Origin: Candidatus Zixiibacteriota bacterium
Lineage (GTDB): Bacteria; Zixibacteria; MSB-5A5; DASWLN01
Direction of reading: 5' to 3'
Length of the DNA stretch: 64,000 nt
NCBI GenBank assembly: GCA_036396115.1
Contig: DASWLN010000168.1
Span: 3,362 to 67,361 of the forward strand
The number at the start of each line of letters is the position of its first letter. Positions within the stretch are counted from its first letter, which is position 1. Below, one piece after another: positions 39,657-51,325 of this stretch. Below the pieces are notes generated by a model. That model saw only the letters and a list, made by a program, of their open reading frames with translations, was not told the DNA's origin and did not search any database. The position numbers and the translations under genes were made by a program.

Positions 39657-39880
39657 GTACGGAACAGGCATGGAGCGTTCCGTACAAAAACGGCGACATT
39701 AGAAATTGTGCCCCCGTAGGGACAGGTCGGGTGGAACATCCCGCTAGAAGGTATGATAGGGAGCAGACATGCCGCCGTGGTAATGAACGGGCATGGCGCC
39801 GTAGGGACAGGTCGAGTGGAACATCCCGCTAGAAGCGTGGAACCTGTCCTTACAGAGACGTCAATATCAAACAATCCCGG
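39657..39880. repeat. island REP cluster R1 (GTACGGAACAGGCATGGAGCGTTCCGTAC, GTAGGGACAGGTCG(G/A)GTGGAACATCCCGCTAGAAG units)
   Basis: Direct copy of these units recurs at 41648-41785 on the other side of the AbiE pair. Confidence 0.8.
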
Positions 39881-40001: not shown

Positions 40002-40775
40002 GTGAAAGAAAAAGTAATAGCAAAAAAGACGCTTTCTATTAAGGAAATAGACCTCATAACGCGTTTGGAATTCTATGGGAAAGAAATCTATACCAAAGGG
40101 GAGATTGTCTCTTTCTGTGGTGGTAGCAAACCCGCGGCATACTTGATAAAGAAGTTGTTGGAAAAAAACAGATTGAGGAAGATTATCAAAAACGTCTATC
40201 TTTTTGTTCCAATGAAGGCTCCAGGTGGCCTCTGGGCTGGGAATGAGTATTTAATTGCCAAAGCTTTGGCAAGAGGAGCTCGCTATTACATAGGATATTC
40301 CGCAGTATTTAATTCCTATGGCTTTACAGATCAAGTTGCGCAAACTATGCATGTTATCAATGATAGATATTCAATGCGTAAAACAGTTTTTGGGGTCAGG
40401 TATAAGTTGATAAAAGTTTTGCCCAACCGGCTTTACGGGTTAGAGACTCGCAAAATAGACAACGAGGATGTTGTTTTCCCGAAAAAGGAACGGGCAATGA
40501 TAGATGTGTTTGAGTTTTATAATGTAAGGAAAGCATACAGCATATTAACCGACCAAATATCTGAACTTAATACGCCCCTTCTTATCAACTATCTGACGCA
40601 ATATCCTGTTCTGGGAGTGCGAAGACGCGTGGGCTATTTTCTCGAAAAACTGAGGATCAATAGAGACCTTTTGAGTAAAATAAAAGTTGGCGAAAAAGGA
40701 TACTCCCCCTTATACGACATAGGCTCAAATCAAGGAAAGATCAATAATCGATGGAGAATTGTTATCAATGGATAG
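40002..40775 (+). CDS. abiEi: type IV toxin-antitoxin antitoxin AbiEi-like transcriptional regulator
   Basis: ~257 aa with an N-terminal wHTH. Immediately upstream of, and overlapping, an AbiEii-family gene. Confidence 0.65.
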   Translation: MKEKVIAKKTLSIKEIDLITRLEFYGKEIYTKGEIVSFCGGSKPAAYLIKKLLEKNRLRKIIKNVYLFVPMKAPGGLWAGNEYLIAKALARGARYYIGYSAVFNSYGFTDQVAQTMHVINDRYSMRKTVFGVRYKLIKVLPNRLYGLETRKIDNEDVVFPKKERAMIDVFEFYNVRKAYSILTDQISELNTPLLINYLTQYPVLGVRRRVGYFLEKLRINRDLLSKIKVGEKGYSPLYDIGSNQGKINNRWRIVING

Positions 40776-41631
40776 GGACAAGCTGGCGAGAATAATACCT
40801 GTCATTGCGCAAGAATATAACTTCAGATTGGAAATCATTGAGAAAGACTTTTATTTGACCCTCATTTTGAATAGTGTTGAGTCGCATTTAAGCGACAAAA
40901 TCGTCTTCAAGGGCGGAACGCTCTTAAATAAAATTCATCTTAATTATCACAGACTGAGCGAGGATATCGATTTTACATACCTTAGTCCGGATGGCTTAGA
41001 CACCCGCTCGAAAAGATCACATGCTTTGGCCCCGATAAGAGAGAAGATGCCCGAACTGTTGAAGCTTTTGGACCTGAAAAGCGAAAAACCCGAAGGGCAA
41101 GGTTTTAATAACTCCACTCAATATGTATTCAACATTTCCTACCCTTCTTTGATTTCCGGAAAGGACGAAAACATACAGTTAGAAATTTCATTAAGACAAA
41201 CGCCTATAGATAAGCCCGTGCATAATGTCATCGCACATTTTTATAAGGATCCTTTTACGGGTGAGGATTTAATTCCCAAGAATAAGATACTCTCGCTTTC
41301 TTTAAATGAAGCGGTTGCGGAGAAACTCAAAGCTTCAATAACAAGGAAAGATGCAGCTATCCGCGATTACTATGACTTATGGTATATATCGGAGACCAAA
41401 TTCGACTTTGAAGATAAAAAGTTCCTTTACATATTCAAGAAGAAGCTTGAATCCGAGAAATACAGAGCCAATTATTCATATAATTTCGGCTTGGATCAAA
41501 AAAAGGTTGAATTGCTTCATAAGCAAATAGAGACGGAATTAATACCTGTTATTCATGTAGGTGAAAGTTTTGATCTTGATAAAGTTTTCAGGCGGTTTAA
41601 TAGGATCTTGCAGAAAATATGGCGTGCGTGA
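40759..41631 (+). CDS. abiEii: nucleotidyltransferase AbiEii/AbiGii toxin family protein (DUF1814)
   Basis: IVFKGGTLLNKIHLNYHRLSEDIDFTY matches the KGGTAL...RFSEDID NTase signature. Confidence 0.8.
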   Translation: MLSMDRDKLARIIPVIAQEYNFRLEIIEKDFYLTLILNSVESHLSDKIVFKGGTLLNKIHLNYHRLSEDIDFTYLSPDGLDTRSKRSHALAPIREKMPELLKLLDLKSEKPEGQGFNNSTQYVFNISYPSLISGKDENIQLEISLRQTPIDKPVHNVIAHFYKDPFTGEDLIPKNKILSLSLNEAVAEKLKASITRKDAAIRDYYDLWYISETKFDFEDKKFLYIFKKKLESEKYRANYSYNFGLDQKKVELLHKQIETELIPVIHVGESFDLDKVFRRFNRILQKIWRA

Positions 41632-41647
41632 TATCCGTAAAAAGATA

Positions 41648-41785
41648 GTAGGGAACGGTCGCGTGGAACATCCCGCTAAAAGCGTGGAACCTGTCCCTAC
41701 AAAAACGGTGACATTAGAAATTGTGCCCCCGTAGGGACAGGTCGCGACCTGTCCTTAACAGAGACACCAATATCACAAGTTGTTT
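41648..41785. repeat. island REP cluster R2
   Basis: GTAGGGAACGGTCGCGTGGAACATCCCGCTAAAAGCGTGGAACCTGTCCCTAC plus GTAGGGACAGGTCGCGACCTGTCC. Confidence 0.8.
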
Positions 41786-41965
41786 GGCCTCGAGTTGGGA
41801 GAATTGAGTTGACAGAGCAATGAATTTGGAGCATATAAATAGGGTAGGTAAGATTGGTAAGACAGCTTATCCGCGAGCAAAGCAAATTCGCGCAACGAAG
41901 ATAGGACGATGGTGGGTTAAGCCTGAGGATTTAGAAAGTTTTATTAAAAGCAGGAGCAACATTCA

Positions 41966-42412
41966 ATGATGAAAATGACAAAAATTAGAGACAAATTAGA
42001 TTTAATTAGAGGGGAAATTATTTCATCTACAGCAAGAGTTGAATTTATTCTGGGCTATAAGTTAAGAAAATATTTTTTCCCCAAGGCCAATAATAAAGCA
42101 ACGATTCTTTTCTGGAACGTTATTAATACTCCTTTCCTTAATTTTGATAATAAAATTAGTCTTTATGAATCAATCCCGTATTTTAAAAAATTAAAAGGTC
42201 ATTCAGAGATTAAGAAATCTTTAAGGTTTATCCAAAAATTGAGAAATAAAATGGCTCATTGGGAACTGGATGAAAAGGAAAGCGACTTGAAGAATATTGT
42301 TATGTTTACATTGGTCGGGAAATATAGAAAAATAACAATTAATGATAGTTCAATTGAAGATTATAGGAAGCATGTTAATTTTCTTCTAAACAAATTTGGT
42401 TATAGTAGATGA
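41966..42412 (+). CDS. small HEPN-domain protein (Rx4-6H motif LRNKMAH)
   Basis: 148 aa, all-helical. HEPN signature seen directly in the sequence. Sits 115 nt upstream of the PHP-ATPase gene. Confidence 0.5.
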   Translation: MMKMTKIRDKLDLIRGEIISSTARVEFILGYKLRKYFFPKANNKATILFWNVINTPFLNFDNKISLYESIPYFKKLKGHSEIKKSLRFIQKLRNKMAHWELDEKESDLKNIVMFTLVGKYRKITINDSSIEDYRKHVNFLLNKFGYSR

Positions 42413-42526
42413 ATTTATCAGGCTTCGGTACTTGGATGCATTCATTAAGGCAAGGACAAATAAGTGAGAAAGATTTATTAATTCTGTTGAATCACATGCA
42501 TTGGGAGAGAATATAGATGCTGACAG

Positions 42527-45355
42527 ATGGAACGTTGTATGGATAAAGGTGCGCATTTTTACAGGTGTGATTTTCAAGTTCACACTCCGCGTGATCTAAA
42601 TTGGGCTGGTCCCGAGGCCGTTACACCCGAAGAAAGAAAGACATATGCGGAAGAACTGATTTTGGTTTGTCGATCCAAAGGTCTCGATGCAATCGCGATC
42701 ACGGATCATCATGACTTCGCCTTCTTCCCATACATCAAACAAGCGGCTAAAGATGAGCTTGACGACAACGGTCAACGGGTTTCTGCACACAAAAGGATCG
42801 TTGTCTTTCCTGGCATTGAAGTTACTTTAACTGCTCCGAATTGCCAAGCGTTACTTATCCTCGACGCAGACTTCCCGGAGAATCTCCTTCCAAGCGTTTT
42901 AACCGCACTGGCCATCACACCTGCGCCGGCAGAACATTCAAAGCACGCGGATGTACAGCGAATTCCCCAGAATGTTGTTAGCGATCTGACGGATTTATAT
43001 CAAAAACTGAATAGTCACCAGCAACTGAAGAATCGGTTTATCGTTTTACCTAATGTGAGCGAAACCGGATGCGGCACAATGCTACGATCCGGATTTGGTA
43101 ATTTCTATAAATCAATGCCATGCGTTGGTGGCTACACGGACGGCCCAGTGTCGCAATTTGGTACCGGGAACTTATCGATTGTTCGAGGAGAAAATCGAGA
43201 GTACGGTTTTAAGGCGATCGGAATCTTTCAAACATCTGATAATAGAAAACGCAATCACGAAGACCTCGGCAAATACACCACATGGGTTAAGTGGTCTGAG
43301 CCAACAGCGGAGGCCTTAAGACAGGCGTGTTTAGCAAAAGAATCAAGGATATCGCAAGAAGTTCCTTTGTTACCACCGGTATTCGTGACGTCAATTGATG
43401 TTTCTAACAGTAAATTCATGGGACAAATTTATCTGGAATTTAGCCAGCAATACAACGCCATAATCGGTGGTCGTGGAACTGGAAAATCAACAATCTTAGA
43501 ATATCTTAGATGGGGTTTGTGCGATCAGGTTTCAGAAATTGTACAAGATGAGGGAGAAATTCCTGGGTATCAGGAAAAAAGAAGGAAGCTTATAGAAAAG
43601 ACCCTGCTTCCGTTTGATTCTACGGTTCAGATTTCATTTGTCAAAAACAACGTTCCCCACATCCTTAGAAGAAAATCCGGAACGAACGAGATGTCTCTAA
43701 AAATTGGATCGGGGGAATTTCAACCTTGTGGTGAGGAGGATGTTAGAAACTTGCTCGCAATCCAAGCCTACAGCCAAAAGCAATTAAGCAGTGTCGGTGT
43801 CAGCATTGAGGAATTGAAAAGGCTGATTTATAGCCCCATCAGGCAAACGCTTAACGAGTTTGATTTAAAATTTGAGAAATTGCGCTCCGATATCAGAAGT
43901 TGCTATGAACTATGGCAGCAAAAAAAATTGATCGCATCTGAAATTGAGAAGGGCGAGCTTGAGCTTAAGTCATTGACTGAGCAAGTGGAAGGTCTCCGAC
44001 AAGGGCTAAAAGGAATCTCTGATCAAGATAAGGCTACAATTGCCTCCCATAAGCAATATGAAATTGTTGAGCAACATGTTGACGGTTGGCACGGAGAACT
44101 GGCGACGGCAAGAGAGGCATTAGAAACCATCAAAAGAGAACTCGCCGAGTATCCCACGACCGTACCTGATGATGTCAAATTGCCTGACACTGAGCTCATA
44201 GTTGTTACGGATATTCAGAAGACACTCAAAGACATTTTTGATGAGATTAACGCGACAGTTGATTCTTTGGGTGACAGATTAAATCCTAAGGGAGAGGTTC
44301 TGACCAAGTTAAACGATTTGATAGATAGTTGGAAAGGTGCTCTCAATCAACATAAGCGACAATATGAATCCGCAAAGCAAAAATCAACTTCACAGGAATC
44401 GACCTTAAAGCAAATCCAGATAATCGAAGATAGGGTTAAAGAAATAAGAAGATCTTTAACGGAAAGAAAGCAAGCCATGCTAAAAACAGGAGATCCCGAC
44501 ACAAAATTTAACGTCCTTAAAGAAGAGTGGTTTAACGCCCATAAGGAAAAGGCTGATTTGTTTCAAGCCCAAAGTGAGAAGTTGAATGAATTATCTGATG
44601 ATAATTTAAAAGCAACTCTAGGCAGAGGAAAGGGCACGGTAAACCTAGAAAACGTGCTAAAGGAGATAATCTCAGGTTCAAACGTGAGGAAGGAGAAAAT
44701 AGAATCTTTGTGCCAGAGAATTAAAGAGGCGACGGATCCTATTCAACAATGGAATCAAATCTTGGCCGAGTTTGAAGCAATTGCTCACTTCGATCCAACC
44801 AAAACCCCCGCCGCGACTTTACCGGCAACACCGATTTTAAGCTCTATCGGTTTTAGTGCAAACGATCTACGCAAAATAGCAGAGAAAATAAATAGCGAAA
44901 ACTGGATTGATCTATTTCTTGTTCAGTTGGACGATCTGCCTTTGTTTGAGTATCGTACTCGTGAAGGTGAGTATATAGAATTCACAGATGCTTCTGCCGG
45001 TCAACAGGCAACGTCTCTAATGAGGGTTTTATTAAATCAAGAAGGGCCTCCTCTTATAATTGATCAGCCGGAGGATGACTTGGATAATCGGATGGTTTCG
45101 GATATTGCGACTTTAATTTGGAAATCCAAGAAAACGAGGCAGTTAATATTCACAAGCCACAATGCAAACATTGTGGTTAATGGCGATGCAGAGTTGGTTG
45201 TCTGTTGCGGATACAAGGTTACGGGTGATCAATCAAAGGGTGAAATTAAGAATCAGGGAGCAATTGATATTGAGGAGATACGAGAGGAAATTATAGAGGT
45301 TATGGAGGGCGGCGAGGCAGCATTTAAGCTTCGCAAAGAAAAGTTTGGATTTTGA
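42527..45355 (+). CDS. PHP-family phosphoesterase fused to a Rad50/SMC-like ABC ATPase with a long coiled-coil insert (PplA-like defense protein)
   Basis: PHP motifs CDFQVHTPRD, AIAITDHHD, FPGIEVT. Walker A IIGGRGTGKSTILEYL. ~400 aa coiled coil. ABC signature SAGQQ, Walker B LIIDQPEDDLD, H-loop FTSHN. Alternative start at 42539. Confidence 0.7.
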   Translation: MERCMDKGAHFYRCDFQVHTPRDLNWAGPEAVTPEERKTYAEELILVCRSKGLDAIAITDHHDFAFFPYIKQAAKDELDDNGQRVSAHKRIVVFPGIEVTLTAPNCQALLILDADFPENLLPSVLTALAITPAPAEHSKHADVQRIPQNVVSDLTDLYQKLNSHQQLKNRFIVLPNVSETGCGTMLRSGFGNFYKSMPCVGGYTDGPVSQFGTGNLSIVRGENREYGFKAIGIFQTSDNRKRNHEDLGKYTTWVKWSEPTAEALRQACLAKESRISQEVPLLPPVFVTSIDVSNSKFMGQIYLEFSQQYNAIIGGRGTGKSTILEYLRWGLCDQVSEIVQDEGEIPGYQEKRRKLIEKTLLPFDSTVQISFVKNNVPHILRRKSGTNEMSLKIGSGEFQPCGEEDVRNLLAIQAYSQKQLSSVGVSIEELKRLIYSPIRQTLNEFDLKFEKLRSDIRSCYELWQQKKLIASEIEKGELELKSLTEQVEGLRQGLKGISDQDKATIASHKQYEIVEQHVDGWHGELATAREALETIKRELAEYPTTVPDDVKLPDTELIVVTDIQKTLKDIFDEINATVDSLGDRLNPKGEVLTKLNDLIDSWKGALNQHKRQYESAKQKSTSQESTLKQIQIIEDRVKEIRRSLTERKQAMLKTGDPDTKFNVLKEEWFNAHKEKADLFQAQSEKLNELSDDNLKATLGRGKGTVNLENVLKEIISGSNVRKEKIESLCQRIKEATDPIQQWNQILAEFEAIAHFDPTKTPAATLPATPILSSIGFSANDLRKIAEKINSENWIDLFLVQLDDLPLFEYRTREGEYIEFTDASAGQQATSLMRVLLNQEGPPLIIDQPEDDLDNRMVSDIATLIWKSKKTRQLIFTSHNANIVVNGDAELVVCCGYKVTGDQSKGEIKNQGAIDIEEIREEIIEVMEGGEAAFKLRKEKFGF

Positions 45356-45405
45356 TAGGTGGGAAAAATTATTAAGGCTTTATTCAATTAAACAGTAGGT
45401 AAAAA

Positions 45406-45729
45406 ATGGCGATGAAGAAATCTGAACTTTACAGCTCTCTTTGGAAAAGCTGCGATGAATTAAGAGGCGGGATGGACGCCTCACAGTATAAAGACTATGT
45501 GTTGGTTTTGTTGTTTGTCAAATACATCTCTGATAAATATGCTGGCGTGACTTACGCCCCGATCACTATTCCTCAAGGTTCAGGCTTCAAGGATATGGTG
45601 GCACTCAAGGATAAGGCGACTATTGGCGACGACATCAACAAAAGAATTATCCAAAAAATTGAAGAGGCAAATCCATCGCTTGGAAATATTGCCGTTGATT
45701 TTAACGATCCAGCAAAATTAGACAGGTGG
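45406..45729 (+). pseudogene. hsdM: type I R-M methyltransferase HsdM, N-terminal fragment only
   Basis: SELYSSLWKSCDELRGGMDASQYKDYVLVLLFVKYISDKY is the HsdM_N signature. The reading frame then runs straight into repeat cluster R3, with no MTase catalytic domain. Confidence 0.65.
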
Positions 45730-45815
45730 CCCACAGCTCTGCTGTGGGACAATTGCGGAACGGTCTCGTGGAACATCCCGCTAGTGGCGTGGAACCTGTC
45801 CTTACAGAGATGTTG
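45724..45815. repeat. island REP cluster R3 (GGTGGCCCACAGCTCTGCTGTGGG plus CGGAACGGTCTCGTGGAACATCCCGCTAGTGGCGTGGAACCTGTCC)
   Basis: Same composite as 51098-51180. Confidence 0.8.
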
Positions 45816-45908: not shown

Positions 45909-46817
45909 ATGATTATTGCAGAACGACAAGTTAAACCTTTTCTCAAATGGGCCGGCGGTAAAGGTCAGCTTATCGAACAAGTTGTTTCATACTTACCCTC
46001 TTCTCTAAAGGAAGGAAGAATAAAGAAATACTTTGAACCTTTTTTGGGCGGTGGGGCTCTTTTCTTCTGGTTGGCCAAACAATACGAGTTCAGGTCGTCT
46101 TACTTGTACGAAATTAATCCCGCAGTATGTCTTTGTTATCAAGTCATCAAAAAGAATGTGAGAAAGCTGGTTAAGGAATTACAGCAGTTGGAATTAGAAT
46201 ACTTTTCGTCTACTGAAAATAGAAAAGAACAAATTTACTACGATAGACGAGAAGAATTTAATGCGTTTTTACACGGGAAGGCATCCAATGGCGTTGTCCA
46301 TCGAACTGCCCTGTTAATATTTCTTAATAAAACGTGTTATAATGGGCTCTATCGCGTGAATTCACAAGGCGAATTTAATGTTCCCTTCGGACGATATAAG
46401 AAACCTACGATTTGCGACGAAGACAATCTTCATGCTGTTAGTGAATTACTGCAAAAGGCAGAGATCGTTTGTGGGGATTTTGCGCTATGTTTGGACTATG
46501 CGGACGACAAATCTTTTGTTTACTTTGATCCGCCATATCGACCCATATCTTCGACGTCAAGCTTTACGAGTTATTCAAAGGGTGTTTTTGATGATGCCGA
46601 GCAGAAACGCTTAAGAAAGGTTTATGGTTCGCTCGATAAGAAAGGTGCTTGCATAATGCTAAGCAATTCTGACCCAAAGAACATGAACCCCGAAGATAAT
46701 TTCTTTGATGAATTGTATAACAGATATCGTATTGTAAGGTTGAATGCAACAAGACTTATCAATTGCAACGCCAACCAAAGGGGCGTTATCACCGAGATAT
46801 TAGTGATGAACTATTAA
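45909..46817 (+). CDS. Dam-family (alpha-class, D12) N6-adenine DNA methyltransferase
   Basis: PFLKWAGGKGQL motif I and DPPY motif IV (FDPPY). Confidence 0.85.
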   Translation: MIIAERQVKPFLKWAGGKGQLIEQVVSYLPSSLKEGRIKKYFEPFLGGGALFFWLAKQYEFRSSYLYEINPAVCLCYQVIKKNVRKLVKELQQLELEYFSSTENRKEQIYYDRREEFNAFLHGKASNGVVHRTALLIFLNKTCYNGLYRVNSQGEFNVPFGRYKKPTICDEDNLHAVSELLQKAEIVCGDFALCLDYADDKSFVYFDPPYRPISSTSSFTSYSKGVFDDAEQKRLRKVYGSLDKKGACIMLSNSDPKNMNPEDNFFDELYNRYRIVRLNATRLINCNANQRGVITEILVMNY

Positions 46818-46826
46818 AAAGGATGT

Positions 46827-47600
46827 ATGATGGCGAATAGCAAATCTTGGAAGAAAATTGTTGACGACTATGAAATCTTAGGGCACGACTTTGACAAATC
46901 GCCGTTTGTGCTTTCTGCAAATCAAATAAAGAGAGCATGTCAGGAATTTAAAGAAACCGGCGAGAAAGAGGTTCGTATTTTGTGCAAACAGGATAATCGT
47001 GAAGACCGACCAGACGTCTTCATTGAAAATGGTCTTTTCCTGCTACCTGTCAGAAATGGCCTCTACAATATCATTAAAGGAGAGGGATATGTTGATATTC
47101 CGGAAATAAAGAAAGAGACTGCTATTTATTCTTCAATGCTTGATTTTAAATTAGAGACAACAGAAGTTGGGAACTCTGAAATGCAACATCTTGATTATGC
47201 TTATGCTAGCAGTCTAATACGCACATTCATGGACGATTCGTCGCTTGTATTGACAATAAGGGGAAGAAAGTACACGCCGGAATTCGAATTTTCTATTGGA
47301 AAGCATCAGATTAAAGTAGCAAGCGTACAAACTGAAGTTGACGCTGGTTATGAGGGGAAAAATCAGGTTGTTTTGATTGAGGCAAAAAATTTCAGTGCAA
47401 CAAACATTATTATTCGGCAACTTTACTATCCCTTTAGACAATGGCAGGCGCGAACGAAGAAAAAAGTAGTCACTTTATTTTTTGATAAAAACCCTGGCGA
47501 TAATTCTTATTCAATTTGGCATTTTGAATTTACAGATTCCCAGAACTATAACAGCATTCGGTTAGTAAAATCTGGTAAATATAGAATCATAGAAAAATAA
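46827..47600 (+). CDS. putative type II restriction endonuclease (PD-(D/E)xK)
   Basis: EVDAGY...VVLIEAK provides the D...E-x-K core. Sandwiched between two MTases as in DpnII/MboI/LlaDCHI-type systems. Confidence 0.5.
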   Translation: MMANSKSWKKIVDDYEILGHDFDKSPFVLSANQIKRACQEFKETGEKEVRILCKQDNREDRPDVFIENGLFLLPVRNGLYNIIKGEGYVDIPEIKKETAIYSSMLDFKLETTEVGNSEMQHLDYAYASSLIRTFMDDSSLVLTIRGRKYTPEFEFSIGKHQIKVASVQTEVDAGYEGKNQVVLIEAKNFSATNIIIRQLYYPFRQWQARTKKKVVTLFFDKNPGDNSYSIWHFEFTDSQNYNSIRLVKSGKYRIIEK

Positions 47601-47617
47601 ATGAGTCATTAAGCGCA

Positions 47618-48406
47618 ATGGATAAGAAAAATACTGATGAAAGATTGGAACCTCAAACAACTACCGTCTGGTCATTTCCAAATCGTGGTAAGTGGCTGTC
47701 GCATAACGCCAAGTATCGCGGCAACTGGGCACCACAGATTCCCAACAATCTAATTCAACTTTATTCTAAGGAAGGCGATATCGTTTTAGATCCTATGGTG
47801 GGAAGTGGGACGACAATGATTGAGGCCAAGTCTCTTGGTCGCAAAGGTCTTGCTTTTGACATTCACCCCGAAGTTGTCAAGTTGGCGCAGGATGCTTGCA
47901 TGTTTTCGTCGGAACAGAAGCATTTCGAGCCAGCTATTGAACAAGGGGACGCGCGGAATTTGAAATCACTGAAAGATCATAGCGTCGATTTCATCGCAAC
48001 GCACCCGCCCTATCTGAATATCATCAAATACGGAAGAAAGGACGTTGACGGTGACCTCTCTGCTATAAGCAGCCTCAAGAAATTCTGCGATGAAATTGAA
48101 AAGGTTGCTGGAGAATGTTATCGTATTCTAAAACCCGGAAAATTCTGTGCTATTCTGATTGGTGATACGCGTCGAAAGCGGCATTATGTTCCTCTTGCCT
48201 TTTCGGTCATGCAACGCTTTCTGAAGCCAGGATTTGTATTGAAAGAAGACGTTATTAAGATTCAACACAACTGTGCGACGACCAGATACTGGAATGCACA
48301 AATAAAGGACTTCTTGCTCATTATGCACGAACATTTATTTGTTTTTCGCAAGCCAGACGTTGATGAGGACAAATTTCTTTATAAGGATAGCATCTATAAT
48401 GTTTAG
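47618..48406 (+). CDS. beta-class N6/N4 DNA methyltransferase (N6_N4_Mtase family)
   Basis: Motif IV (HPPY) precedes motif I-like DPMVGSGTT (circularly permuted order typical of beta-class). Confidence 0.8.
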   Translation: MDKKNTDERLEPQTTTVWSFPNRGKWLSHNAKYRGNWAPQIPNNLIQLYSKEGDIVLDPMVGSGTTMIEAKSLGRKGLAFDIHPEVVKLAQDACMFSSEQKHFEPAIEQGDARNLKSLKDHSVDFIATHPPYLNIIKYGRKDVDGDLSAISSLKKFCDEIEKVAGECYRILKPGKFCAILIGDTRRKRHYVPLAFSVMQRFLKPGFVLKEDVIKIQHNCATTRYWNAQIKDFLLIMHEHLFVFRKPDVDEDKFLYKDSIYNV

Positions 48407-48536: not shown

Positions 48537-49337
48537 ATGAAAGAAGTAACCTCAGAAATCGACGGATTGGTGGTTCGTTCTAGCGGGATATGGATTAAAC
48601 AAAAATATTACTACTTGAAAAGATACCTGGATATTTTTTCAAAAGGAATGAAGAATAGATGGAAAGGAAATTTAACTTATATTGATCTATTTGCTGGACC
48701 TGGGCGTTGTTTAATAGAATCTATTAAGGAAGAAGAAGACGGTTCTCCTTTAATAGCATTGCAGTACGATTTTAAGAAATACGTTTTTGTTGAAGAATCA
48801 AAAGAACTAATTGAGGCTTTGAAAACAAGATGTAAAAATTCCCCCAAGTTTAGCAGGATTGAATTTTTAGAAGGAGATTGCAATAATGTTGTTGATGAAA
48901 TTATTCCTCAGGTTGACCCAGCCGGTTTAAACCTTATTTTTATTGATCCTACCGGAATCGATATCCATTACAAGACCATTGAAAGAATTGTTAAAAACAA
49001 CCGATCTGATTTGTTAATTAATGTTCAGCTCGGGATGTATATCACTAGAAATTTTCTTGCCTATAAGAAAAAGGGTGATAATTCAAAACTGGGATTATTC
49101 TTAGGGGGTAACGTTGATTGGGATAAATTAAAGAATCCCCAGGATGCAGTTAAGTTGTATAAAGAGCGTATCAAGGGGCTGGGTTATCAGACAGTAGAAT
49201 TCAAAGACATTACTATTAAAAATACCCTAAATGCCCCGATGTACTTTTTATTATTTGCTTCAAAGAATCCAAAAGGCCTGCATTTTTGGAAAGAGATAAC
49301 TAAAAAAGATCATTCTGGGCAGTTCGAGTTGTTTTAG
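48537..49337 (+). CDS. TcmP-like (three-Cys-motif partner protein) family candidate
   Basis: Recalled resemblance to TIGR04474-type proteins. Contains YIDLFAGPG, reminiscent of C5-MTase motif I (DLFAGxGG). Immediately upstream of a Cx3Cx3C protein. Confidence 0.5.
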   Translation: MKEVTSEIDGLVVRSSGIWIKQKYYYLKRYLDIFSKGMKNRWKGNLTYIDLFAGPGRCLIESIKEEEDGSPLIALQYDFKKYVFVEESKELIEALKTRCKNSPKFSRIEFLEGDCNNVVDEIIPQVDPAGLNLIFIDPTGIDIHYKTIERIVKNNRSDLLINVQLGMYITRNFLAYKKKGDNSKLGLFLGGNVDWDKLKNPQDAVKLYKERIKGLGYQTVEFKDITIKNTLNAPMYFLLFASKNPKGLHFWKEITKKDHSGQFELF

Positions 49338-49387
49338 CAAGAAAATTATCTTTCAGTATAATTCGTGGAAGATGGTATAATATAAAC

Positions 49388-50170
49388 ATGGAAAAAATTT
49401 ACCGTAAGTCTCTTTTGTACAAAAGTGAAGTCGAATACGCAGATTTTTGTTTGAATCATGTAGAAGGATGCTCCCATGGTTGCAAATATCCGTGCTATGC
49501 TTATATGATGAAAAAGAGGTGCGGGATTGTTAAAAGCTACGATGACTGGTGCAAACCAAAAATAGTAGGTAATGCGTTAGACCTCTTAGACAAAGAAATT
49601 CCTAAATATAAAAGCAAGATCAAATATGTGCACCTCTGTTTTTCTACTGATCCATTTATGTATAATCAAGAAGAAGTGAGCGATTTAAGCCTGAAAATAA
49701 TCGATAAGCTTAATTTAAACGGTATCCGTTGCACTGTTCTGACAAAAGGCGTTTTTCCTGAAGAAGTTGGTCATAAAACTGTTTTTAGCAAAAACAACGA
49801 ATATGGCATTACACTTGTTTCATTGGATGAAAATTTCAGAAAGAAATTTGAGCCAAATTCAGCCCCTTTTCGCAATAGAATTCGTTCGCTTGAGGATATA
49901 CACAAACAAGGTTTTAAGACCTGGGTGAGCATGGAACCATACCCTACTCCTAATTTGATTAAGCAAGATTTGCTTGAAATATTGGAAGCGGTGTCCTTTG
50001 TGGACCAGATTATCTTTGGCAGGTTGAATTACAGTGTGAAATCCTCGGAGTTTGGACATGCAAAGGAATTCTATAACAGTATGGCCTCGTCAGTGATTAA
50101 GTTTTGCAGGAAGCACAAGATCAAATACCATATTAAAGATGGAACCCAGAAGCTAAGTGGTGGACAATAG
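49388..50170 (+). CDS. non-canonical three-Cys-motif radical-SAM-like protein
   Basis: CLNHVEGCSHGCKYPCY gives a Cx3Cx3C cluster in place of the canonical Cx3Cx2C (compare hemW in this window). Confidence 0.5.
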   Translation: MEKIYRKSLLYKSEVEYADFCLNHVEGCSHGCKYPCYAYMMKKRCGIVKSYDDWCKPKIVGNALDLLDKEIPKYKSKIKYVHLCFSTDPFMYNQEEVSDLSLKIIDKLNLNGIRCTVLTKGVFPEEVGHKTVFSKNNEYGITLVSLDENFRKKFEPNSAPFRNRIRSLEDIHKQGFKTWVSMEPYPTPNLIKQDLLEILEAVSFVDQIIFGRLNYSVKSSEFGHAKEFYNSMASSVIKFCRKHKIKYHIKDGTQKLSGGQ

Positions 50171-50336
50171 TCTCTTTTTAAGGCACTACTCGGCAGACAA
50201 AACAGGGATTGCTTCGCTAAAGCTCACAATGACAGCTGAATACTGCAACTTAGTACGCCACCAAAGTTTTAGCGAGTGAAGGGAAAAGGGACCTTACCCG
50301 ATGGGTGGGGTACACTTGTTATCATGGGAGAAAAAC

Positions 50337-51044
50337 ATGACTAGGGCAGATAAATTTTTGTCTCTTTTTAATCTTATTGAAAAAACCCTTCACAAAATAA
50401 GTCCTCGCGAGCCTGGTGAGGGTTTTAAGGAAATGATTAATCGTCTCAGCAAGTCTAACAAGATTATTTGCCAATATAAATATGATTTAAGGGACTACGC
50501 CGACCTTAGAAATGCAATAGTTCATCAGTTTACAGGGGAAGCCATCGCCGAACCGCACGAAGATGTTATTGCCAATCTACAAACAATCCATGATATTTTG
50601 GTTAGACCACCGACAGCCATTGAAATTTCCTCCAAACCTGTTTATTGTTGCGAAGCAAAGGATAAAATTGTTGATGTAGTAAAAACAATGACAGCCAAAG
50701 TTTACACCCATGTCCCCGTTTACGAAGATGATAGATTCGTTGGTGTTTTCTCCGAATCCAGTATTGCAAGGTGGTTAGGCGAAAATGCGGAGAAAGACGG
50801 ATTTCTTTTGAATGAAACGAGAGTTGGGGAACTAAAACAATTCTTTGAGAAAGATAATGACCCCTTCAATTCTTACAAATTTGTTTCAAAGGATATTGAC
50901 GTATTTACTATTATGGACTATTTCTTATCTTTTGTTAATGAAAATAAACGTTTAGGAGCTATTTTTGTAACGAATAGCGGCAGGAGCAGTGAAGGAATAT
51001 TAGGAATTATTACATCATGGGATTTACCAAGAATTGATAAATAG
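50337..51044 (+). CDS. HEPN-like N-domain plus tandem CBS-domain protein
   Basis: N-terminal helical domain with Rx4H (LRNAIVH). C-terminal CBS pair (VYTHVPVYEDDRFVGVFSESSIARWL and GAIFVTNSGRSSEGILGIITSWDL). Confidence 0.5.
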   Translation: MTRADKFLSLFNLIEKTLHKISPREPGEGFKEMINRLSKSNKIICQYKYDLRDYADLRNAIVHQFTGEAIAEPHEDVIANLQTIHDILVRPPTAIEISSKPVYCCEAKDKIVDVVKTMTAKVYTHVPVYEDDRFVGVFSESSIARWLGENAEKDGFLLNETRVGELKQFFEKDNDPFNSYKFVSKDIDVFTIMDYFLSFVNENKRLGAIFVTNSGRSSEGILGIITSWDLPRIDK

Positions 51045-51097: not shown

Positions 51098-51325
51098 GCA
51101 GGTGGCCCACAGCCCTGCTGTGGGAGAGTTGCGGAACGGTCTCGTGGAACATCCCGCTGAAAGCGTGGAGCCGTTCCCTACAGAGAAGGTTGCGTGGGTG
51201 ATTTTAGGGTAGGGAACAGGCATGCCTGTTCCGTACAAAACGGCCGCGTGGATGATTGTGATGTAGGGACAGGTCACGTGGATGATTTTAGCGTAGGGAA
51301 CAGTCGCGACTGTTCCCTACAAAAA
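51098..51325. repeat. island REP cluster R5
   Basis: GGTGGCCCACAGCC..., CGGAACGGTCTCGTGGAACATCCCGCTGAAAGCGTGGAGCCGTTCCCTAC, GTAGGGAACAGGCATGCCTGTTCCGTAC, 30-nt CGCGTGGATGATTGTGA units and GTAGGGAACAGTCGCGACTGTTCCCTAC. Confidence 0.8.

What the first reader, a model, noticed from the sequence alone, without database searches (positions are those of the whole stretch)
42527..45355. 942-aa PHP phosphoesterase :: Rad50/SMC-like ABC ATPase fusion (SbcCD-analog in one polypeptide; PplA-like)
The N-terminus has three PHP motifs (QVHT, ITDHHD, GIEVT), so it is a metal-dependent phosphoesterase. The remainder is a split ABC ATPase (Walker A GRGTGKST ... ~400 aa coiled coil ... SAGQQ signature, DQPEDDLD Walker B, SHN H-loop), the arrangement seen in Rad50/SbcC. 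A nuclease fused to a Rad50-like clamp is a plausible DNA-end or phage-DNA sensing effector. I recall a single-gene antiphage system named Ppl (PplA, PHP plus ATPase) from Gao et al. 2020 with this architecture. The gene sits between a small HEPN protein and a decayed type I R-M, like restriction-linked ORFs (PrrC/RloC).
Basis: partly seen in the sequence, partly recalled or inferred. Interest (0 to 1): 0.7.

Follow-up and report, generated by a model that had tools for sequence, protein, structure and literature searches.

The report
Ppl-like TrlF nuclease-ATPase defence gene
This is an intact, horizontally mobile gene for a TrlF-family protein (a phosphoesterase-like domain fused to a Rad50/SMC-type ATPase), a sister of the proven anti-phage protein Ppl, so it is a new member of a named but untested family, not a new kind of system.

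The parts
42527..45355 (+). TrlF-family ORF (942 codons; probable start ATG at 42539, giving 938 aa)
   Evidence: NF045780 515.7 bits, cut-off 350, profile positions 1-943 of 944; P0001 100% identical, 938 aa; dN/dS 0.19 against the 94% relative
42539..43378 (+). PHP-superfamily domain (aa 1-280) with a remodelled ligand set: D11, Q13, H15, D19, H57, H58, E94, Q103, N172, D234, R236
   Evidence: Pfam PHP 18.9 bits, below its cut-off. A profile of the domain hits the PHP phosphoesterases 3e0f, 2anu, 7ug9 and 9etk. Motif mapping.
43379..43792 (+). ABC ATPase N-lobe (aa 281-418): Walker A GGRGTGKST (nt 43466-43492), Q-loop AYSQKQL (nt 43766-43786)
43793..44593 (+). Antiparallel coiled-coil arms (aa 419-685) with a proline-rich apex loop YPTTVPDDVKLPDTE (nt 44150-44194); no CxxC, no hinge domain
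   Evidence: AF2 secondary structure; Cys scan; coordinates
44594..44923 (+). Helical/beta insert between the coiled coil and the C-lobe (aa 686-795), function unknown
44924..45352 (+). ABC ATPase C-lobe (aa 796-938): signature SAGQQ (nt 44993-45007), Walker B LIIDQPEDDLD with Gln843 at the catalytic-Glu position (nt 45053-45085), H-loop SHN (nt 45152-45169)
42432..42538 (+). Upstream leader that is conserved with the gene (94.7% identity to L002); presumed to hold its own expression signals
   Evidence: the promoter scan found no more sites than chance gives
41820..41969 (+). Remnant of an HTH_17 (TrlR-like) regulator gene: only the C-terminal half is homologous to the intact 58-aa gene upstream of the 94% relative
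   Evidence: 17.6 bits against a cut-off of 27; the L002 copy scores 44.7 bits
41966..42412 (+). Independent 148-aa HEPN-like cassette (27% GC) lying in a ~500-nt indel; not part of the TrlF module
45406..45726 (+). 5' fragment of a type I hsdM (HsdM_N only); the ORF reads on into a repeat element up to 45816
45753..45812 (+). Copy of a palindromic interspersed repeat that truncates hsdM; other copies lie at 39716, 39801 and 41648, and further matches at 51144, 53620 and 53730

Best explanation
The ORF encodes an intact, stand-alone TrlF-family protein. A PHP-superfamily phosphoesterase-like domain is fused to a Rad50/SMC-type ABC ATPase head, which is split by a ~270-aa coiled coil. The gene is a horizontally mobile defence-island gene, typically lodged in or beside R-M or BREX loci, and a full-length paralogue of the single-gene anti-phage protein Ppl. 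The most likely mechanism is inferred by analogy with Ppl. The ABC heads bind NTP but hydrolyse it poorly or not at all, because Gln occupies the catalytic-base position. NTP-bound protein is held inactive. When infection lowers NTP pools and exposes free DNA ends, the coiled-coil clamp engages the DNA and the PHP-like domain attacks it. Shown here: family membership, architecture, fold, mobility, purifying selection, context and the active-site substitutions. Inferred: anti-phage function, NTP gating, DNA-end targeting, and whether the remodelled PHP site is catalytic at all.
Against: No experiment on any TrlF-family protein shows phage defence. The only paper on TrlF found no trlF phenotype (PMC7554251), and no later paper was found. 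Four of the nine canonical PHP ligands are replaced in this clade, so Ppl's exonuclease chemistry may not carry over. The Pfam PHP score is below its cut-off. The flanking HTH regulator and hsdM are decayed, so expression and function in this genome are unproven. The Ppl primary paper could not be read.
Confidence: 0.6

Rival explanations
1. The PHP-like domain of this clade is not a nuclease. With Q13, Q103, N172 and R236 in place of His it may have lost the trinuclear metal centre and serve instead as a nucleotide- or DNA-end-binding sensor. The protein would then act as an SMC-like clamp that marks or holds foreign DNA for other nucleases, such as the neighbouring restriction enzymes or RecBCD.
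For: Ligand substitutions are seen in 52 of 71 sampled sequences (signature DQHDHHEQ[N/H]DR), whereas Ppl and the distant TrlF clade keep the His ligands. The gene recurs directly beside R-M and BREX genes. From general knowledge, not tested here: the E. coli Pol III alpha PHP domain is an example of a PHP domain that has lost its metal ligands and keeps a structural role.
Against: The substituted positions are themselves strictly conserved polar residues, and H58 appears together with them, which looks like a rebuilt site and not a decayed one. D11, H15, D19, D56, H57, E94 and D234 remain invariant or nearly so. The gene has no obligatory partner.
Confidence: 0.2
2. It is one component of a TrlR-TrlF-TrlG type module, as in the Photorhabdus temperature restriction locus, and needs a TrlG (AlbA_2 + HATPase_c_4) partner to act.
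For: The family is named after that operon. TrlG-like genes lie directly downstream in 5 distant loci and divergently upstream in 4 flavobacterial loci. A remnant of a TrlR-like HTH gene lies upstream in the window.
Against: The window has no TrlG-like gene (tblastn). Only 6 of the 90 immediate neighbours from 62 loci carry AlbA_2. The 94% relative has no TrlG. An upstream HTH gene was found in only 1 of 66 loci.
Confidence: 0.08
3. It is a true Ppl orthologue.
For: The best PADLOC hit is Ppl. The architecture is the same and the alignment is collinear.
Against: The NCBIfam Ppl model scores 190 bits against a cut-off of 1000, while the TrlF model passes. Identity is 25%, and the PHP ligand set differs.
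Confidence: 0.04
4. It is a housekeeping DNA double-strand-break repair enzyme, an SbcCD equivalent in a single polypeptide.
For: The head has a Rad50/SbcC-like fold. PGAP attaches an electronically inferred 'double-strand break repair' GO term to one homologue.
Against: The gene is patchily distributed across phyla and occurs on plasmids and integrative elements. A 94%-identical copy lies in a different context. There is no conserved synteny, no zinc hook and no catalytic Glu.
Confidence: 0.04
5. It is an inactive relic in this genome.
For: The adjacent HTH regulator and hsdM are truncated by repeat elements, and a foreign cassette is inserted upstream.
Against: The 2.8-kb ORF is intact and every family-invariant residue is kept. 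dN/dS is 0.19. The 107-nt leader is conserved with the gene.
Confidence: 0.04

Closest known systems
Ppl (single-gene anti-phage system; NCBIfam NF042955; for example A. pittii WP_203370284.1)
   Same: Both have an N-terminal PHP domain, a split ABC ATPase with a coiled-coil insert, and the same order of Walker A, Q-loop, signature, DQPEDDLD Walker B and H-loop. The alignment is full-length (hhalign 99.9%). Both are single genes and both are found beside R-M genes (an S subunit lies next to ppl).
   Different: Identity is only 25% and the score is far below the Ppl model cut-off. Ppl keeps the canonical PHP ligands (DFHCHSP, THIIAIF, PAHVD, GSDAH). This protein has Q13, Q103, N172 and R236 at those positions and gains H58. 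No activity data exist for this clade.
TrlF of the Photorhabdus laumondii temperature restriction locus (trlR-trlF-trlG); NCBIfam NF045780
   Same: The protein passes the family model over its full length, and a remnant of a small HTH gene lies upstream. hsdM fragments were also noted inside the homologous locus of Yersinia ruckeri pYR3 (PMC7554251).
   Different: No TrlG is present here. In the published work the temperature phenotype maps to trlG, not to trlF. The Photorhabdus sequence itself could not be fetched for direct comparison.
Rad50/SbcC-Mre11/SbcD and SMC-like defence ATPases (Lamassu LmuB, Wadjet JetC, PtuA)
   Different: The phosphoesterase is a PHP domain fused in cis, not a separate Mre11-type calcineurin-fold subunit. 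The coiled coil is short. There is no CxxC hook, no hinge and no kleisin-like partner. Walker B has Gln in place of the catalytic Glu.
Restriction-linked ORFs (PrrC, RloC and similar genes embedded in type I R-M loci)
   Same: Both are accessory defence genes lodged within or beside hsd genes. Ten or more of the sampled TrlF loci carry HsdR, HsdM or HsdS within four genes.
   Different: The protein family is unrelated (anticodon nucleases versus PHP-ABC). No functional coupling to the R-M enzyme has been shown for TrlF.
Spaf_1101 family AAA-like ATPase (NCBIfam NF045781)
   Same: It is the third related NCBIfam model and matches the C-terminal ABC lobe (149.8 bits).
   Different: The score is below the cut-off of 475, and that family has no characterised function either.

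Membership tests
TrlF family AAA-like ATPase (NCBIfam NF045780) | Full-length score at or above the curated cut-off of 350 bits | tested here: met
   515.7 bits, residues 7-940 against profile positions 1-943 of 944
TrlF family AAA-like ATPase (NCBIfam NF045780) | N-terminal PHP-superfamily domain followed by a split SMC-like ABC ATPase | tested here: met
TrlF family AAA-like ATPase (NCBIfam NF045780) | Operon with trlR (a small HTH gene) and trlG (AlbA_2 + HATPase_c_4), as in the founding Photorhabdus locus | tested here: not met
   No TrlG-like gene in the window and only a truncated HTH_17 remnant. This feature is also absent from most family members, so it does not define the protein family.
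Ppl anti-phage protein (NCBIfam NF042955; PADLOC PDLC02208) | Score at or above the curated cut-off of 1000 bits | tested here: not met
   190.2 bits in 3 stretches. The PADLOC Ppl model gives E=4.5e-50 and 168.7 bits.
Ppl anti-phage protein (NCBIfam NF042955; PADLOC PDLC02208) | PHP + NTPase single-polypeptide architecture | tested here: met
   hhalign 99.94% over 801 columns against A. pittii Ppl
Ppl anti-phage protein (NCBIfam NF042955; PADLOC PDLC02208) | Canonical PHP metal ligands (HxH, H, E, H, H, DxH) | tested here: not met
   Q13, Q103, N172 and R236 replace four His residues
Ppl anti-phage protein (NCBIfam NF042955; PADLOC PDLC02208) | [quoted passage not shown] | not testable with these tools
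   Needs plaque assays and biochemistry. The mechanism is known only from review PMC12904381.
PHP phosphoesterase superfamily (Pfam PF02811) | Pfam gathering score of 26.4 bits | tested here: not met
   18.9 bits, E=0.0021, residues 42-102 only
PHP phosphoesterase superfamily (Pfam PF02811) | Profile-level homology to solved PHP enzymes, with motifs I-V in register | tested here: met
   3e0f at 8.4e-5, 2anu at 5e-4, 7ug9 at 1.1e-3, 9etk at 1.2e-3; motifs I, III, IV and V align with 2anu
Rad50/SbcC | ABC head fold with the coiled coil emerging between the lobes | tested here: met
Rad50/SbcC | CxxC zinc hook at the coiled-coil apex | tested here: not met
   No CxxC anywhere in the protein; the apex is YPTTVPDDVKLPDTE
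Rad50/SbcC | Walker B Asp-Glu with a catalytic Glu | tested here: not met
   IIDQPE: Q843 aligns with the Glu of wild-type ABCF1 (LILDEP) and with the Gln of E-to-Q mutant entries. Gln is invariant in 67 of 67 members.
Rad50/SbcC | Separate Mre11/SbcD nuclease partner | tested here: not met
   No such neighbour in the window or in 62 related loci
SMC proper | Hinge dimerisation domain at the apex | tested here: not met
   Only a ~14-residue loop lies between the helical arms
HEPN superfamily (for the 148-aa neighbour only) | Rx4-6H motif and a helical HEPN fold | tested here: met

The most novel reading that the evidence does not exclude
The 'Q-clade' of TrlF (signature D-Q-H-D-H-H-E-Q-N/H-D-R) may be a distinct, so far unvalidated single-gene immune module. 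Its rebuilt PHP centre would use a different metal stoichiometry, or act as a sensor, and its naturally hydrolysis-impaired (DQPE) ABC head would act as an NTP-level gauge. It may cooperate with the adjacent R-M or BREX system by seizing and processing the DNA ends that restriction creates. That would explain why the gene is repeatedly lodged next to restriction genes.
Probability: 0.15. Interest if true: 0.65.

Novelty: new member of a known kind. Interest (0 to 1): 0.35.

Why it matters
Ppl has only recently been given a mechanism (an NTP-gated exonuclease that senses 3'-OH ends). Its much more widespread sister family TrlF has a curated name but no demonstrated function. TrlF was found in at least 572 species-representative genomes and 412 plasmid records, with 774 50%-identity clusters at E<=1e-30. 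This locus, with its 94%-identical mobile twin, gives a clean, compact test case (gene plus a 107-nt leader). Two sequence-level hypotheses can be tested directly by point mutation. One is that Gln at the Walker B catalytic position makes the ABC head a nucleotide sensor and not a motor. The other is that a coordinated replacement of four His ligands defines a functionally different PHP centre. If TrlF defends against phage, annotation pipelines would gain a common defence gene that is now labelled only 'AAA family ATPase', 'chromosome segregation protein' or 'type III restriction enzyme'.

Full report
OBSERVATION. The ORF at 42527-45355 (+) is real. It has 942 codons, and the complementary strand is closed in the frame translated. 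The database holds an identical 938-aa protein (P0001) that starts at the second in-frame Met (window 42539). Family alignments begin at that MDKGAHF, so 42539 is the likely start. Residue numbers below use the 938-aa form. One source labels the carrying contig a candidate division Zixibacteria MAG. I did not verify that.

FAMILY. NCBIfam places the protein in NF045780, the 'TrlF family AAA-like ATPase'. It scores 515.7 bits against a curated cut-off of 350, and the alignment covers profile positions 1-943 of 944. The Ppl model (NF042955) scores 190 bits against a cut-off of 1000. The Spaf_1101 model scores 150 bits against 475. In PADLOC the best model is Ppl (E=4.5e-50), followed distantly by mad3, AriA and LmuB. 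Pfam sees SMC_N, AAA_21 and AAA_23 above threshold, and PHP only below threshold (18.9 bits against 26.4). A bona fide Ppl was obtained from an annotated Acinetobacter pittii plasmid (WP_203370284.1). Against it BLASTP gives 25% identity over residues 4-457 and 39% over 803-932. Profile-sequence alignment is collinear over 801 columns (residues 6-934 against 4-889, probability 99.94%). So the gene is a full-length paralogue of Ppl, but by the curated criteria it is a TrlF, not a Ppl. The name TrlF comes from the Photorhabdus laumondii 'temperature restriction locus' trlR-trlF-trlG. In that locus mutations in trlG, not in trlF, relieve growth restriction at 36 C, and no function was shown for trlF (PMC7554251). 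I found no later paper linking the locus to phage.

Gln843 occupies the position of the catalytic glutamate. It aligns with the Glu of wild-type ABCF1 (LILDEPTNNLD), and with the Gln of entries that read D-Q there, one of them named ABCB1HM-EQ. This Gln is invariant in 67 of 67 family members aligned and is also present in Ppl (LILDQPEDDLD). In ABC ATPases the E-to-Q change classically allows nucleotide binding and head engagement but blocks hydrolysis (established knowledge). I infer that the head is a nucleotide-binding switch or sensor and not a Rad50-type motor. This fits the report that Ppl is held inactive by bound NTPs (review PMC12904381; primary reference Xu et al., Mol Cell 2026, identified but not held).

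PHP DOMAIN. A profile of the N-terminal 280 residues from 16 diverse members finds solved PHP phosphoesterases: 3e0f (8.4e-5), TM0559 2anu (5e-4), the 5'-3' exoribonuclease 7ug9 (1.1e-3) and 9etk (1.2e-3). Motifs I, III, IV and V are in register with 2anu. The ligand set, however, is not canonical. Ppl and the distant TrlF members have DxHxH, an IH strand, AH and SD(x)H. The window protein has D11-F-Q13-V-H15, C-Q103, P-N172 and S-D234-N-R236, and it has H58 where the canonical group has Asn.

Across 71 sequences the signature D-Q-H-D-H-H-E-Q-N-D-R occurs 41 times and the same signature with H172 occurs 11 times. The canonical D-H-H-x-H-N-E-H-H-D-x type includes Ppl and the TrlF proteins of V. 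anguillarum, B. cereus and C. freundii plasmids. In the 87 closest homologues Q103 is invariant and Q13 nearly so. Four of the nine classical metal ligands are thus replaced in a coordinated, conserved way. That argues for a rebuilt site and against a decayed one, but it leaves open whether the domain is still a nuclease.

DISTRIBUTION AND MOBILITY. The word-indexed search gave at least 2522 hits at E<=1e-10. The exhaustive search of 1.84 billion cluster representatives gave 774 at E<=1e-30 and 4435 at E<=1e-10. At least 572 species-representative genomes from many bacterial phyla and some archaea encode a relative. 412 plasmid records match, mostly conjugative enterobacterial plasmids matching in part. 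Phage genomes almost never carry it (5 partial hits).

A 94%-identical copy (P0002) lies in an integrative element. There the order is serine recombinase, HTH_17 gene, TrlF, an HSDR_N_2/N6_Mtase/Eco57I methylase, an S subunit, an HNH/CTD10-MC6-DUF2326 cluster and an integrase. DNA identity between that locus and the window (94.7%) is confined to window 42432-45377, that is, the gene plus 107 nt upstream and 22 nt downstream. One further 80-nt patch (41856-41935) corresponds to the 3' half of the HTH_17 gene. dN/dS between the two copies is 0.19.

NEIGHBOURHOOD. In 76 related loci no gene is universally adjacent. Recurrent neighbours are type I HsdR, HsdM and HsdS (about 11 loci), type III Mod/Res and SNF2 helicases, TrlG-like AlbA_2+HATPase_c_4 genes, SIR2, recombinases and transposases. 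The TrlG-like genes lie directly downstream in 5 distant loci and divergently upstream in 4 flavobacterial loci. One 67% relative directly follows BREX PglX-PglZ-BrxL. Annotated plasmids show a restriction endonuclease plus an integrase, SIR2, and the AimR arbitrium module of a plasmid-prophage. All distant loci tested still pass the TrlF model and fail the Ppl model. This is the pattern of a stand-alone gene in defence islands and mobile elements, often restriction-linked.

MECHANISM (inference). By homology with Ppl, the protein most likely dimerises through its NTP-bound ABC heads and is kept off at normal NTP levels. It would be released when infection depletes NTPs and supplies free DNA ends, and it would then act on the DNA through the PHP-like domain. 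The DQPE Walker B supports the sensor part of this model. The remodelled PHP site weakens the nuclease part. The main rival is a non-catalytic PHP domain in a clamp that cooperates with neighbouring restriction enzymes. Membership of Ppl proper, a TrlG-dependent module, housekeeping repair and a dead relic are each unlikely, for the reasons given in the rival entries.

VERDICT. The gene is a new member of a known, named but functionally untested family (TrlF) related to Ppl. Interest is moderate. The value lies in a compact, testable representative and in two conserved active-site peculiarities, not in a new kind of system.

Noticed in passing
window 41966-42412 (+): A 148-aa HEPN-like gene with 27.3% GC (the window has 42.5%). 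It belongs to a family that is 70-86% identical across Patescibacteria, Elusimicrobiota, Nanoarchaeota, Bacteroidetes and others. No Pfam or NCBIfam model hits it. It is always found as a single small gene slotted between different defence genes, which suggests an unusually mobile and conserved mini-cassette.
   Followed up: partly
window 39716-39775, 39801-39860, 41648-41707, 45753-45812; further matches near 51144, 53620, 53730 (all + strand): A family of ~60-nt palindromic repeats (core GTGGAACATCCCGC...GTGGAACCTGTCC). Every copy is on the gene strand and just after a gene's 3' end. One copy truncates hsdM. The region around 41640-41775 folds strongly (z = -4.9). They look REP/MITE-like. 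An attC-like role was not tested.
   Followed up: partly
window 45053-45085 (Walker B); also Ppl at L093:3917-6595: Both the TrlF family (67 of 67 sequences) and Ppl carry Gln at the Walker B catalytic-Glu position (DQPE). This is a natural equivalent of the laboratory E-to-Q hydrolysis-dead mutation.
   Followed up: partly
window 40002-41631 (+): An AbiEi/AbiEii toxin-antitoxin pair lies immediately upstream of the locus, bracketed by the repeat elements.
   Followed up: no
window 45909-48406 (+): A Dam-family methylase, a DUF6996/DUF6997 protein and an N6_N4 methylase lie in a row, which looks like a two-methylase type II R-M with an uncharacterised nuclease candidate. The next genes are a 266-aa protein with only a weak, sub-threshold methyltransferase match, a radical SAM protein and a CBS-domain protein (48537-51044), all at low GC (36%).
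   Followed up: no
L002:10881-17525 (locus of the 94% relative): Downstream of the near-identical TrlF lie an HSDR_N_2+N6_Mtase+Eco57I methylase, an S subunit, and an HNH_2/CTD10, MC6 and CTD10+DUF2326 cluster. The whole set is flanked by a serine recombinase and a tyrosine integrase, so it appears to be a composite mobile defence element.
   Followed up: no
L078 and L080 (TrlF homologues with TrlG directly downstream): These two TrlG-linked TrlF proteins have lost PHP motif I altogether (A/V-Q-N in place of D-H-H). PHP degeneration therefore seems to have happened more than once in the family.
   Followed up: no
L097 (B. cereus plasmid pBC07-2) 3234-7661: A TrlF-family gene sits directly beside an AimR arbitrium lysis-lysogeny receptor in a plasmid-prophage.
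   Followed up: no
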